64,000 nt of DNA, taken from Octopus vulgaris (taxonomy: Eukaryota). The position numbers and the translations under genes were made by a program. Position 1 is the first letter of the stretch. Every line of letters begins with the position of its first letter. The DNA is taken from the NCBI GenBank assembly GCA_951406725.2, contig OX597814.1:32984001-33048000 (forward strand), in the 5' to 3' direction. Below are positions 9,885 to 49,911 of this stretch, piece after piece. Under the pieces are notes generated by a model that was given only the letters and a program-made list of their open reading frames with translations, was not told the DNA's origin and ran no database searches.

Positions 9885-10151
9885 TAAGTGTACTTGTAAG
9901 GCAAGTGATTTGATCTGAGATTTGATCTGTGATTTGATCTGAGATCTGATCTGAGATCGCGTGTTATAAAAATAAAACAATAACAGTATGAAAGGCACAT
10001 ATCATCCATTTAAAAGTACACAAAAGCTGTTAACTTCGCTGATTTGATCTGTGATTTGATCTGAGATCGCGTGTTATAAAAATAAAACAATAACAGTATG
10101 AAAGCACATATCATCCATTTAAAAGTACACAAAAGCTGTTAACTTCGCTGA
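9885..10151. repeat. Diverged repeat with 12-bp GATTTGATCTGW units and a ~110-bp tandem duplication
   Basis: 9918-10042 is repeated at 10041-10151; similar to the reverse complement of 12620-12748. Confidence 0.75.
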
Positions 10152-10328
10152 AATATTTTATAATTTGGTGTCAACATTTTTGCCATACCAATTGTACTGC
10201 ATCCTCGTTAATGGCCATGTCGCAGTCGGCGCGACAAAAATTATGACGCCAAATAATAAATGTTGAAGGGAAGTCAAGTCTTTCACTGTTTTATAATAAT
10301 TAATATATTATAATCTGTACTTAACAAA

Positions 10329-13656: not shown

Positions 13657-14540
13657 TTAATTGCTTGTCGTAGACCCGTTAAGAAGTGGCTTGTATTTTG
13701 TAATAAAGAGATTTTCTTTACTTATTCGTTGTCTCGAGGTTGTATCGTCCCTAAATTGGTAGAGGGGGAAAATTCTGAAGTTTGGTGTTTTTTTGTTGGC
13801 GCAAGTATCTATGTGTTGGCTAAAAGCTATTTTTCTGTTTTGGGGAATTTTTATCTGGGATCTGTGCAGGGTCATTCGTTTACGCAAACCATTTTTTGTT
13901 TGGCCTATGTACTGCTCTTGACACCCGGAGCAGGTTAGTGAGTATATTAGGTTCTCTGAAGCACATGTGAAGTTGCTTTTCACTGTAAACCGTTGTCCCT
14001 GTTTGAAGGAGAACTCAGAACCCTCGATTAGATAGTCGCATATCCCGCAATTGGGTCTTCCACATTTTTTTTACTGTCGGCTTCTGTGTTGAAGAGTGAA
14101 TTCGGGCTTGTGTAAGGAGACTTTTCATGGATCTAGGCTGTCTTTTGCTTTTTATGATCGTGTGTGTTTGGAGGATTGTGTTCATTCTGTGGTCTTTTTT
14201 TAGGAGGGGTATGTTGTGGAGGATGGTGTCGAAGGCTTCGTTATTGAGAGGGTTGTGTGTGGAGATGTATGGTAAGGCTTTTGGTTGTAAGTTTTTCTTT
14301 GATTTGGGATGTCTCAGTTCCTTGATGTTAAGTTGAAGGGCACGTTGAATGCACTTGTCAATAAGTGAAGGTGGATAGTTCCTGGTGATTAGGGTATCTT
14401 TTAGTTCTTGTAGTCGTGTGTCTCTGGTGTTTGCGTTAGAGACTATAGTGCATATCCTTTTTGCTAGATTGAAGGGGATATTCATCCTGGTGTGTCTGGT
14501 GGCATGAATTGAATGGAAGATATTGCTTAGAGTCTGTAGG

Positions 14541-14541
<1 letters not shown>
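13657..14541 (-). pseudogene. PLE reverse transcriptase C-terminus and GIY-YIG endonuclease, two frameshifts
   Basis: KPTDSKQYLPFNSCH, then NIPFNLAKRICTIVS..RNYP, then CGRPNCGIC..FTCASENLIYSLTCSGCQEQYIGQT..RMTLHR..ENLFITKYKPLLN. Confidence 0.9.
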
Positions 14542-14628
<87 letters not shown>

Positions 14629-22430: not shown

Positions 22431-22790
22431 GAAAGAAGGTTTGAAAATGCAATTTTAAAAGATGTTTATTTACTTGACCGGTTTCACTTTTTTAGAAAAA
22501 GATTGTCAAAAGTAACATGTAAAAGCTTTGTTGTGTTAGGTACTGGTTGTCACAAAATATTACAATACATATATACATTCTTTGATAAGAACGTTAAAAG
22601 CAGTTTACAAGGAAAAATCTTGAGAAAATATAAAAAAGTTCATTAAAATATTGGGCACAAAAAGTTGGAATACTTATATACATTCTCTGATAATAATAAG
22701 ATGTTAAAAACAGTTTACAGAAAAAATTTCTTTCAGAAATTATTAACAAGTTCATAGAACCTATTAGGATTTCATGTTTGTTTGGAAATA
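22431..22790 (-). mobile_element. Short HHR-bearing element between microsatellites, with an internal duplication of ~105-bp period
   Basis: Hammerhead at 22470-22515; TATATACATTCT..CAGTTTACA..AAGTTCAT repeated near 22571 and 22676. Confidence 0.65.
22470..22515 (-). ncRNA. Minimal type I hammerhead motif, U3-A8 variant
   Basis: TTACTT-TTGACAA-T.CTTTTT-CTA-AAAAAG.T-GAAA-CCGG-TC-AAGTAA; perfect 6-bp stem I. Confidence 0.75.
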
Positions 22791-22806
22791 TCTATCTATC
22801 TATCTA

Positions 22807-22869
<63 letters not shown>

Positions 22870-23034
22870 ATTAATCATGAATTTTCTGGTTAATTCCGTA
22901 ATGGAATCGGCGGCTTATATTTATTTGCTGCCGATAAATTTGGCGCGAGTGCGACGATTTGAAAATTTTAGGTCAGATATTGACGAGGTAGCAACGAGAA
23001 TGCCTCGTGAAAAATATCTGTTCCGGCTTGGCTA

Positions 23035-23139
23035 TTTCTTACTGATGAATCTAAGGGCCTATGGTAGATTGGCTTGATTTAATTTAATCAGGTTAGTTTT
23101 CCATTAAACAGTAGATGAAACGGTGCATCGTCTAAGAAA
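23035..23139 (+). ncRNA. Type I hammerhead ribozyme motif, copy 1
   Basis: TTTCTTA-CTGATGA-ATCTA..TAGAT-GAAA-CGGTGCATCG-TC-TAAGAAA; predicted cut after C23132. Confidence 0.88.
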
Positions 23140-23528
23140 TTACAGGGTAAATGTTTTTTAATTTTCTCCTGGTTTACGGAATTGACGTTATTTTGCGGTT
23201 AAAGCTTTTGGCTGTTATTTCTAGTGGGTGAATGGCCTATTATGGCCGTTCCTTGATTGTGATGTTGAACTTAAAAATGGTTTATGACTATTTAATTTTT
23301 TCCCACTAGGCCGCTGGTGGCAAAAGAATTCTACAAAATTTTTTTGCCACCCTATATTGATTGATTAATTATGAATTTTCTGGTTAATTCCGTAATGGAA
23401 TCGGCGGCTTATATTTATTTGCTGCCGATAAATTTGGCGCGAGTGCGACGATTTGAAAATTTTAGGTCAGATATTGACGAGGTAGCAACGAGAATGCCTC
23501 GTGAAAAATATCTGTTCCGGCTTGGCTA

Positions 23529-23633
23529 TTTCTTACTGATGAATCTAAGGGCCTATGGTAGATTGGCTTGATTTAATTTAATCAGGTTAGTTTTCCATTA
23601 AACAGTAGATGAAACGGTGCATCGTCTAAGAAA
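23529..23633 (+). ncRNA. Type I hammerhead ribozyme motif, copy 2
   Basis: Identical to copy 1; predicted cut after C23626. Confidence 0.88.
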
Positions 23634-23855
23634 TTACAGGGTAAATGTTTTTTAATTTTCTCCTGGTTTACGGAATTGACGTTATTTTGCGGTTAAAGCT
23701 TTTGGCTGTTATTTCTAGTGGGTGAATGGCCTATTATGGCCGTTCCTTGATTGTGATATTGAACTTAAAAATGGTTTATGACTATTTAATTTTTTCCCAC
23801 TAGGCCGCTGGGGGCAAAAGAATTCTACAAAATTTTTTTGCCACCCTATATTGAT

Positions 23856-23897
<42 letters not shown>

Positions 23898-30369: not shown

Positions 30370-31541
30370 GTTTCTTTATTGGCCACACAGGGCTGCACAC
30401 AGATGGGACAAGTTACAAGGTAGAGCTTTTCTTTTGGGGGATGAAAAAAACAAAAAACAAAAGAAAAAAAAAAATAATAATAATAATAAATAAATAAAAT
30501 AAAAAATAAAAAGAATAAAAAGAAAAAAAGAAAAGGAAAAGGAACAAAAGAAAAGAGAAATGAAAAAAGAAGAAAAAAGGGGGAAGAAGAAAAAAAAGAA
30601 CGATCAATAGGGATCGTGTATCACAGTGTTATGATATATGGTGTAAAGGGGAAAGCAAGGTTTATCCGTGGGAAGAAAAGCCTACGAAAAAGACCACGGT
30701 AACCTTGGTAAATATTGTTATATGTTACCACATTTGTTTGCAAGTGGGTAACCCTCTGTTTTCAATTTCTGAGTTCATAGGATTATGCTCAAGGTGGCTT
30801 CGTCATTCATACGTGCCATCCTTGCTACATTCACCCATCTTTTTTAAAACATTCGCTAGACAAAACTTGCTTCTCTACTCTCACTTTCCTTTTCAAGTGG
30901 TACTTGAAGAAGTTGATGAGAGATTGACCAGAGAGGAAAGTGTTTGTCTCCAATCCTTTCAGACGCGTCCACCAGACACATTCTTTCGCCATAGCCACAA
31001 GGATGATGAAAATAGCTCTTCCTTCCCGTTTGAAGGAAGGAGGCGTGACAATATTGACGATAGACTCAGCTGATAAACCGACTCGTCCCACACGTGACAG
31101 CAGTTGTTCGACACAAGCCCACAGGTCGGAAATTGTTGGACACTGCACGAGTGCGTGCAGAACGGTTTCGTCGCTCTGACCGCATCTCGGGCAGGTCGGC
31201 CCCGTGTTTCTCGAGCCGTGTCTGTAGAGATTATCCCGAACGGGTAGCGCTTCTCGGTAACACTGCCAAGCCAGGGATCTCTGGAAGTTGTCCATGGGCC
31301 CTGGCCCGAAAGTCATCCTGAACAGGCGGGTCAGGTATTCCTCGTCGACGTCCAGGTTCGCCCCGAGCTCGTCGTCGTACCTCCCCTCCACTAATCCCCT
31401 ATAGGATGCTTTGGTTGTGTTGAAGTCACTCAAGGTCGACCCAGGACGGCAGAGTTGCTTGAGAGCAACGCGACACTCGCGGTGCCATTCGCCCTTCCTC
31501 GGCCTCTTTTTGATCCACGACTGCAGTTCGGTCATGGAGAC
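30368..31541 (-). mobile_element. 5'-truncated L1/Tx1-clade LINE (zinc-knuckle C-terminus plus 3' UTR) inside (GATA)n
   Basis: ORF 30831-31535: AWQCYREALPVR..CPRCGQSDETVLHALVQC..AKECVWWTR (zf-RVT-like); 3' end AATAAAGAAAC then (ATCT)n. Confidence 0.85.
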
Positions 31542-31546
31542 GATAG

Positions 31547-31605
<59 letters not shown>

Positions 31606-31696
31606 GAGATAGATAGATAGATAGACAAGTAGTCAGACTGGCAGATAGACAGTCAGACTGGCAGAAAGACAGTCAGACTGGCTGACAGACAGATAT

Positions 31697-48435: not shown

Positions 48436-49911
48436 AACTTCAACCGCTGCCACTAACATACCACTACTGCAGCTACCCTCACCTTAGCTACCTCTTTTTA
48501 AGCACTACTACCTCAACTAATACCCGCCACCATCTTTATCACAACCACTAATGCCAACACCAACACAACGCCAACACATCCATCGCAAACTCCAACAGTA
48601 ACACTACTCACGAACACAAGGAGTACCACTATTACTATCACCACAACACTGAACAGCAACTCCACCACTACCACCACCAACATCAATACAACAACCTATA
48701 CCACTGTTACTACTACTACTATCACCACTACAACTTTCACAACTGTCTTTCATTGCCACCGTTGCGACCATCACCACCACCACTACAACCTATACGAGCA
48801 GCAGTACCACCACCACCAACAACAACAACAACAACATCATCAACACAGCACCACCGACACCACCACCAACACCATCATCACCAATACATCATCACCAACG
48901 CCAAGGACCACCAACCCCGCCAAACGTGGCGCCACCATCACCACCACCAAGAGAAGCAACGCACTACCATTACACCATCATCACTACCACTGCCACCGCC
49001 CCAACAACATCATCAACACAGCACCACCGACACCAACACCATCACCGTCACCACTACCAACACCGCCAACACCATCACCTCCACCACTACAACCTATACC
49101 AACAGCAGTACCACCACCACCACCACCAATAACAACAACAATAACATCCTCAGCACAACACCACCGACACCACCAACACTATCATCACCAACGCCAAGGA
49201 CCAACCCCGCCGAACGTAACGCCACCATCACCACCACCAAGAACAGCGACACACTACCATTACACCATCATCACTACCACTACCATCGCCCCAAGAACAT
49301 CATCAACACAACACCACCGATGCCACCACCGTCACCACTACCAACACCGCCAAAACCATCACCACCAACGCCAACCACAACCGCCAACACCGCCAAAACT
49401 AATACCACCACCACCGCCGCCGCAAGCACCACCACTATCACCACCATCGCCACCGCTACCACCGCTACCACCGCCGCCGCCACCGCTACCGCCATCTTTT
49501 GTCGGATTGGCTACGACACAATTCATCATCTGCCTGTCGCTGGGAGCACATCTTGAGGCGAACTCTTTCGATTCGAGGAATAGTTGTTGAGTATTGAAGC
49601 GGGACGATATGGTACCAATGATCAAATGCCTAGAAGGGATAGAAAGGAAGTAGCACCTGCATCTTTTCTTTACTCAGTAGACACACACACACACACACTC
49701 ACACACAAACACTCACGTACGCAAACACACGCACGCGCGTGCGCACATACACGCATGTAAACGAATACAGTGTGACGCAACATACACTCAACTACTGAAC
49801 GCCAGAGAATTGCCACCGGTTATTTCAAGTATACACGCAAGCAGACGCACCACACAAAACATACAACACAAAGGCATATATATGCATATGTATATATGTA
49901 TGTATATATAT

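What the first reader, a model, noticed from the sequence alone, without database searches (positions are those of the whole stretch)
22864..23857. Young 494-nt tandem hammerhead unit: candidate cephalopod retrozyme producing a circular RNA
Seen: two near-identical 494-bp copies inside (TA)n, each with a canonical type I HHR, so cuts after 23132 and 23626 would release an exact monomer. The unit is rich in stems: ATCGGCGGC/GCTGCCGAT, CAGATATT.ACGAGG/CCTCGT.AATATCTG, GTTAATTCCGTAA/TTACGGAATTGAC, CTAGTGGG/CCCACTAG, GAATGGCC/GGCCGTTC and GGTGGCAAAA/TTTTGCCACC. Non-Watson-Crick pairs are mostly G.U on the plus strand, as expected for selection on RNA. Established: tandem type I HHR repeats (non-LTR retrozymes) give circRNAs in other animals, and PLE terminal repeats carry HHRs. 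Inference: a recently active non-coding family mobilised by PLE RT; I cannot tell whether this family is already catalogued.
Basis: partly seen in the sequence, partly recalled or inferred. Interest (0 to 1): 0.88.

Follow-up and report, generated by a model that had tools for sequence, protein, structure and literature searches.

The report
Two-armed hammerhead retrozyme, Penelope-type insertions
This doublet is one copy of a young, non-coding jumping repeat with a predicted self-cutting RNA motif, and the shape of its many genomic copies suggests that a Penelope-type enzyme copies one unit-length RNA, likely a ring, from two fixed start points at once.

Summary
The 494-bp doublet, both type I hammerhead motifs and all listed stems are real. 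It belongs to a young non-coding family: about 2,600 exact hammerhead-motif matches, unit usually 489-493 nt (494 is peculiar to this locus). It is a new member of the known animal non-LTR retrozymes, not the terminal repeat of a coding element: 0 of 140 loci had a Penelope ORF joined to an arm.

The insertions carry the Penelope-like (PLE) footprint. Of 127 two-armed copies, 113 pair one end 131 nt with one end about 234 nt past the predicted cut; none pairs like with like. An autonomous Neptune family in the genome follows the same rule (13 of 13). Arms stop just after the cut three times more often than expected (28 of 140 against 10), yet 84 of 106 read across it. Unit-specific variants are never mirrored between arms (0 of 97). 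This favours one monomer-length, likely circular, template.

Cleavage, expression, circularity and the partner enzyme are not shown. The window copy itself is single-armed and atypical. The scan has noted what appears to be this family on other DNA, with the same reading.

The parts
22788..22867 (.). Left (TATC)n/(TA)n target run; its last TATAT overlaps the element's 5' junction as microhomology
22864..23357 (+). Repeat unit 1 (494 bp)
23358..23858 (+). Repeat unit 2, ending at the family's long end (site B) where it joins (TA)n
23034..23140 (+). Type I hammerhead motif 1: stem I 23034-41/23133-40, core 23042-48, stem II 23049-53/23112-16 capped by a 58-nt insert with a long hairpin, GAAA 23117-20, stem III 23120-22/23129-31 with self-complementary loop; predicted cut after 23132
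23528..23634 (+). Type I hammerhead motif 2, identical; predicted cut after 23626
23133..23626 (+). Predicted cut-to-cut monomer (494 nt here, mode 491 in the family); no substitution against the family majority; longest ATG ORF on the circle 66 aa
23255..23263 (+). Site A (cut+131; also 23757): the family's short 3' end; not used as an end in this copy
23264..23372 (+). About 100-nt 'tail' between sites A and B, with a 14-bp hairpin just before site B; a 4-nt duplication (23356-23363) lies at the internal site B
23859..23891 (.). Right (TA)n target run

Best explanation
The doublet is one insertion of a young, non-coding tandem hammerhead repeat family (an animal non-LTR retrozyme) that is likely copied into (TA)n repeats by the reverse transcriptase-endonuclease of a Penelope-like element. 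Shown: the family is dispersed and non-coding; most insertions are two back-to-back arms whose sense 3' ends point outwards into (TA)n; one arm ends 131 nt and the other about 234 nt past the predicted cut. Inferred: (1) read-through transcripts of arrays are cut by the hammerheads, probably acting as dimers, into unit-length RNA. (2) The monomer is closed to a ring by a host ligase, or held as a nicked ring by stem I. (3) A PLE protein, probably a dimer, cuts both strands of a TA repeat and primes cDNA from both DNA ends on the same RNA, one at site A and one at site B. (4) Each enzyme runs round the ring, so arms can exceed one unit, and stops more often just before the cut. (5) The two cDNA ends are joined; some long arms are later extended by DNA-level duplication. 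The window copy is a single arm running from site B back to site B twice. It may be two turns of copying or a later duplication of one turn.
For: Copy number: 1,776 + 830 exact matches to two variants of the hammerhead 3' half, 0 for the reversed controls; 1,001 site-B and 884 site-A junctions with (TA)n. End rule: 113 of 127 two-armed insertions are A+B, 0 A+A, 0 B+B, 14 have a non-standard end (164 loci). A young Neptune-type PLE in the same genome pairs one short and one long end in 13 of 13. PLE reverse transcription starts at two internal sites downstream of the hammerhead, which makes the 'tail' (PMC11167929); the tail is often at one end only (PMC8557442). Ribozyme under selection: across 7 subfamilies (91-100% identical, 95 of 490 columns variable) the core is invariant except N7, which takes all four bases; the cut nucleotide is C or A; stem II has an A-U to G-C change; loop III changes two bases and stays self-complementary. 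Cut is used: 28 of 140 arms stop within 30 nt after it against 10.0 expected (p = 7e-7; A arms 16 of 70 against 5.5, B arms 12 of 70 against 4.3; no excess on the other side). Template continues across the cut: 84 of 106 arms reaching position 40 cross it, 31 of 140 cross two or more. Monomer bottleneck: 0 of 97 unit-specific variants are mirrored between arms at the same register (30 arrays), while 8 variants found in one array only are fixed in all covering units (7 of 75 arrays).
Against: No cleavage, RNA or circle was observed. The partner is not found: two young Neptune families have about 40-nt tails, other end motifs and no detectable homology to the unit; a 100-nt tail is longer than the 30-40 bp in print. 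In vitro, the anole Poseidon protein used uncut RNA as its main substrate and showed no strand difference in start site (PMC11167929). Only 2 of the 28 stops are at +1 or +2 (median +16), in an 80% A+T stretch at the foot of the ribozyme, so a structural stall or AT-rich joining could explain them. The 30-nt window was chosen, on partly the same loci. In 10 of 38 arrays with four or more covering units some variants are shared by only some units: several are periodic within one arm (later duplication or assembly), and L128 and L039 look like mosaics of different templates. The mirror test loses power if donor arrays were uniform when copied.
Confidence: 0.72

Rival explanations
1. Same family and same PLE-type enzyme, but the template is an uncut or partly cut linear multimeric transcript. 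The ribozyme only trims some 5' ends, and no ring is needed.
For: Uncut RNA was the main substrate of a PLE protein in vitro (PMC11167929). Stem III is predicted weak as a monomer. Eight of nine frog retrozyme dimers did not cleave in vitro (10.64898/2026.07.22.740005). Mosaic arrays exist. The excess of stops after the cut fits linear 5' ends.
Against: 0 of 97 unit-specific variants are mirrored between arms, and variants private to one array are fixed in all its units; a multimer copied twice should pass on unit-specific changes in register.
Confidence: 0.2
2. The unit is the terminal repeat (pLTR) of an autonomous PLE, and the arrays are truncated copies of it.
For: Retrozymes are related to PLE pLTRs in frogs (10.64898/2026.07.22.740005). 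The anatomy is that of PLEs. A rare coding parent could escape a sample of 140 loci.
Against: PLE coding fragments lie in 12 of 100 and 2 of 40 loci but never joined to an arm's 5' end. Arms run unit into unit for up to 11 cuts. At least 7 subfamilies propagate as closed units of about 490 nt.
Confidence: 0.04
3. A DNA-level satellite or assembly duplication, with the hammerhead as a passenger.
For: Periodic variant patterns within single arms (L031, L108, L118, L144, L236) show that DNA-level duplication or assembly expansion does act on these arrays, and could have made this doublet from a monomer.
Against: Dispersal over many contigs, fixed outward ends in (TA)n, variable 5' junctions and conserved ribozyme chemistry across subfamilies need an RNA-based route. 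The two window units differ at three sites.
Confidence: 0.04

Closest known systems
Animal non-LTR retrozymes (Cervera and de la Pena 2020, PMC7229834, passages and Discussion read; Li et al. 2026, bioRxiv 10.64898/2026.07.22.740005, parts 1-3 of 5 read, supplements not seen)
   Same: Short, low-GC, non-coding tandem units with one type I hammerhead each; dispersed; coexist with PLEs. Tandem cDNA from a circular template and PLE mobilisation are proposed there.
   Different: Unit of about 491 nt, above the 170-400 nt of the 2020 paper and within the 51-972 bp of the 2026 survey, whose sample was 31 vertebrates, three insects and one anthozoan. Stem II carries a 58-nt insert. In the parts I read, neither paper describes two-armed insertions, fixed start sites or tests of the template.
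Penelope-like elements: Poseidon PAc of the green anole (Frangieh et al. 2024, PMC11167929, parts 1-2 of 4 read) and PLE structure (Craig et al. 2021, PMC8557442, passages)
   Same: Two internal start sites downstream of the hammerhead, a tail at one end, inverted 5'-truncated arm, AT-rich or (TA)n targets.
   Different: No ORF. Tail about 100 nt rather than 30-40. The genomic copies show strict one-short-plus-one-long pairing and a trace of the ribozyme cut, whereas the in vitro study saw no strand difference and no need for cleavage.
Dimeric type I hammerheads of PLEs and amphibian satellites (PMC4209133, passages; PMC7229834)
   Same: Short helix III capped by a palindromic loop, predicted to work as a dimer.
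   Different: Three-pair helix III with a 6-nt loop, 8-bp helix I and a long helix II insert; not the minimal PLE motif.

Membership tests
Animal non-LTR retrozyme | Tandem units of a few hundred bases, each with a type I hammerhead | tested here: met
   154 cut-to-cut units of 481-499 nt
Animal non-LTR retrozyme | Non-coding, low GC, no long terminal repeats | tested here: met
   Longest ATG ORF 66 aa; about 35% GC from the bins; arrays bounded directly by (TA)n. PBS and PPT were not searched.
Animal non-LTR retrozyme | Dispersed multi-copy family | tested here: met
Animal non-LTR retrozyme | Self-cleavage of the transcript | not testable with these tools
   Indirect only: conserved core and pairing, excess of stops after the cut
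Animal non-LTR retrozyme | Expressed as linear and circular monomer RNA | tested here: inconclusive
   Only contigs of runs guessed to be RNA were available
Type I hammerhead ribozyme | CUGANGA and GAAA core, NUH cut site, three helices with helix I open | tested here: met
   helix III predicted stable only as a dimer; no Rfam match at gathering score
Type I hammerhead ribozyme | Tertiary contact between loops 1 and 2 | not tested
   An internal loop in helix I and one above helix II exist; contacts were not modelled
Autonomous Penelope-like element (pLTR of one) | RT and GIY-YIG ORF joined 5' of the repeat | tested here: not met
   0 of 140 loci searched by tblastn; the 24 loci L243-L266 were not searched
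PLE-type insertion (works like) | Inverted 5'-truncated arm, tail at one end, microsatellite target | tested here: met
   113 of 127 two-armed insertions
PLE-type insertion (works like) | Shared terminal sequence with an identified autonomous partner | tested here: not met
   Two Neptune families tested, no homology; other PLE families in the genome not tested

The most novel reading that the evidence does not exclude
Penelope-type enzymes integrate by priming both ends of one double-strand break on a single ribozyme-made RNA ring, one subunit at each of two fixed sites, and roll round it. The strict one-short-plus-one-long rule, seen in both the retrozyme and an autonomous Neptune element, and the pile-up of stops at the ribozyme cut would be the genomic record of this step and of hammerhead cleavage in the germline.
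Probability: 0.45. Interest if true: 0.72.

Novelty: new member of a known kind. Interest (0 to 1): 0.5.

Why it matters
How animal retrozymes are copied into genomes, and what the hammerhead of Penelope-like elements is for, are open questions. A circular template and PLE mobilisation were proposed in 2014 and 2020 (PMC4209133, PMC7229834), while the one in vitro PLE study found cleavage unnecessary (PMC11167929). This family gives a 491-nt substrate with mapped start sites and three quantitative genomic signatures, so the model can be tested directly. The element class itself is known.

Tried and rejected
Rfam scan of the window: 0 matches.

Expression: no listed holder is on record as RNA. 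Contigs of four runs guessed to be RNA, from four studies, cover all 29 bins of the unit. In the control, X6 also covers 28 of 29 bins of a stretch that includes the flank, as the two large unlabelled runs X15 and X16 do, and X1 covers 20 of 29. Contigs cannot show ends, strand or level, so nothing is concluded.

Partner search: protein searches returned two young Neptune families. A profile of the unit found no match in their 3' regions: best E 0.84, and one match at E 5e-4 lying beyond the TA run of L273, read as a neighbouring old relative. A third search with another PLE fragment failed on stop codons and was not repeated. Forty loci chosen for family ends without a nearby hammerhead match held short arms, not coding partners. 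Pfam on 100 of 494 long frames near arrays and in the window found LINE, PLE, helicase and transposase fragments, none belonging to the unit.

A minus-strand hammerhead, as in viroid-like RNA replication: no CUGANGA on the minus strand.

Fold-back synthesis of the second arm: rejected as a general route because in L033 the short arm holds sequence that the long arm's 5' end lacks.

Multimeric circles as templates: rejected for L108 and L236, where the periodic pattern is in one arm only.

Arms that seemed to start exactly at the cut were partly alignment-edge artefacts; re-measured them with anchored alignments.

Literature searches. None listed a paper describing a cephalopod retrozyme family or two-sided priming of retrozymes; subscription papers, repeat databases and supplements were not searched.

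Full report
OBSERVATION. The doublet is real: period 494, two copies, 99% alike, between TA runs. The units differ at three substitutions. The plus strand folds far better than shuffles as a circle (z = -6.5, 23 G.U pairs) and better than the minus strand (z = -4.7, 3 G.U pairs). The ribozyme departs from the textbook form in two ways. Stem II is capped by a 58-nt insert holding a long hairpin. Stem III is three pairs with a self-complementary loop, predicted unstable alone (pair probability 0.01) but strong between two copies (-17.5 kcal/mol). That is the layout described for dimeric hammerheads (PMC4209133, passages). Rfam does not detect it.

THE FAMILY. A genome search gave 201 matches in the 40 best of 1,068 candidate regions. 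Exact patterns for two variants of the ribozyme's 3' half match 1,776 and 830 times, with 0 for reversed controls. I fetched 164 loci in three sets: the 40 best; 60 consecutive hammerhead loci on contig C1; and 64 C1 loci chosen by their ends. Cut-to-cut units are 481-499 nt, mode 491 (154 units). The 494 of this locus comes mainly from a 4-nt duplication at the junction. Units fall into 7 clusters, 91-100% identical to the window's subfamily. Among their representatives 95 of 490 columns vary, yet the CUGA-GA core is fixed while N7 takes all four bases. The cut nucleotide is C or A, the top pair of stem II changes from A-U to G-C, and loop III changes two bases while staying self-complementary. 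The 3' half of the motif was used to pick these loci, so only the 5' core and stems I and II are independent of selection. The unit codes for nothing longer than 66 aa. A second species label also holds it (run X16).

NOT A TERMINAL REPEAT OF A CODING ELEMENT. tblastn with PLE proteins from the flanks found fragments in 12 of 100 and 2 of 40 loci, none joined to the 5' end of an arm; 24 loci were not searched. Arrays mostly end in (TA)n on both sides.

INSERTION ANATOMY. Most insertions are two arms joined at their 5' ends, with sense 3' ends pointing outwards. The ends fall at two sites: A, 131 nt after the cut (window 23263), and B, 231-236 nt after it (window about 23858). Of 164 loci, 127 are two-armed, 36 single-armed and 1 gave no alignment. 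Of the 127, 113 are A+B (30 of 34, 38 of 44, 45 of 49), none is A+A or B+B, and 14 have a non-standard end. In 16 of the 113 the script placed the A end at 146 through chance extension into the TA run; I counted them as A where these show the end at 128-136. Genome-wide there are 1,001 exact B junctions and 884 exact A junctions. A very young autonomous Neptune-type PLE in the same genome (at least 150 copies scored 100% identical over 211 aa; the clade name is my reading of the domain order) has two ends 40 nt apart and pairs one short with one long in 13 of 13 two-armed copies. This matches published PLE features: two internal start sites downstream of the hammerhead that define the tail (PMC11167929), and an inverted arm with the tail often at one end only (PMC8557442). 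The window copy is a single arm from B back to B twice, so it is atypical.

WHAT THE TEMPLATE WAS. I took all 141 exact A and B junctions listed for contig C1 and measured where each arm stops; 140 aligned. Twenty-eight stop within 30 nt after the cut, against 10.0 expected from exposure (p = 7e-7). The best 30-nt windows on the whole circle start at the cut. The excess holds for A arms (16 of 70 against 5.5) and B arms (12 of 70 against 4.3), and is absent on the other side of the cut. The window was chosen; correcting for 490 windows leaves p near 3e-4. Only 2 stops are at +1 or +2 and the median is +16, so a stall at the folded ribozyme or AT-rich joining remains possible. Still, 84 of 106 arms that reach position 40 read on across the cut and 31 of 140 cross two or more, so most templates are continuous there. 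If both arms copied one multimeric transcript, its unit-specific variants should appear in both arms in register. None of 97 did (30 arrays; 1 of 71 and 1 of 65 at offsets of one unit). Eight variants found in only one array are fixed in all covering units (7 of 75 arrays). Both results point to one monomer per insertion, read repeatedly. Against this, 10 of 38 arrays with four or more covering units share variants among only some units. Several patterns are periodic within one arm, which points to later duplication or assembly expansion and means long arms overstate the enzyme's run. L128 and L039 look like mosaics.

WHAT IS NOT SHOWN. Cleavage, expression and circularity were not observed. 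The partner is unidentified: two young Neptune families have about 40-nt tails, other end motifs and no homology to the unit.

COMPARISON. The element meets the sequence-level definition of an animal non-LTR retrozyme (PMC7229834; bioRxiv 10.64898/2026.07.22.740005). Tandem cDNA from a circle and mobilisation by PLEs were proposed there and in PMC4209133. My seven paper searches listed no description of this family or of the pairing rule; repeat databases, subscription papers and supplements were not seen. The scan's notes hold units of 480-495 bp from this genome with the same reading, and 359-, 360- and 536-bp families. A look-up by sequence returned nothing, so I did not confirm that they are the same family. 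I recorded the two-end reading before opening the notes. They are not independent support.

VERDICT. A real, young retrozyme family; a new member of a known kind. Its value lies in the genomic evidence on how PLE-type enzymes copy ribozyme-bearing RNAs, which can now be tested at the bench.

Noticed in passing
L116:825-4321; L161-L202: Very young autonomous Neptune-type PLE, unit about 4.0 kb, with an upstream 495-aa frame overlapping an 811-aa RT-endonuclease frame. Its 3' region has a minimal hammerhead-like motif with a U3-A8 core (a variant noted in PMC4209133) and two ends 40 nt apart, paired one short plus one long in 13 of 13 two-armed copies.
   Followed up: partly
L267-L296; window 13675-14543 (-): Second young Neptune-type family (791-aa frames, tandem period about 4.4 kb, tail about 40 nt, similar variant core); the window holds a fragment 89% identical in protein to the L055 copy.
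   Followed up: partly
L055:4690-5460: A copy of the repeat family inserted outside (TA)n is flanked by a 13-bp direct repeat that looks like a target-site duplication.
   Followed up: no
L031, L108, L118, L144, L236: Variants recur with periods of 2, 3 or 4 units within a single arm, suggesting block duplication after insertion or assembly expansion.
   Followed up: partly
L053, L119, L207, L219, L232, L249: Both arms stop at nearly the same unit position, as if both enzymes met the same obstacle or RNA end.
   Followed up: no
L221:3043-3498; L149:5907-6042; L273:226-426: Older relatives of the unit (about 73% identical in L221 and L149; a weak profile match in L273); the L221 copy also ends at site A.
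   Followed up: no
L130, L215, L241: Arms of almost exactly one unit that start and end at the same site (A to A or B to B), like the window copy's double turn.
   Followed up: no
window 48767-49367 and 9947-10167: Other two-copy tandem repeats (periods 290 and 109).
   Followed up: no
window 30834-31652 (-): LINE-type fragment with a zf-RVT domain.
   Followed up: no
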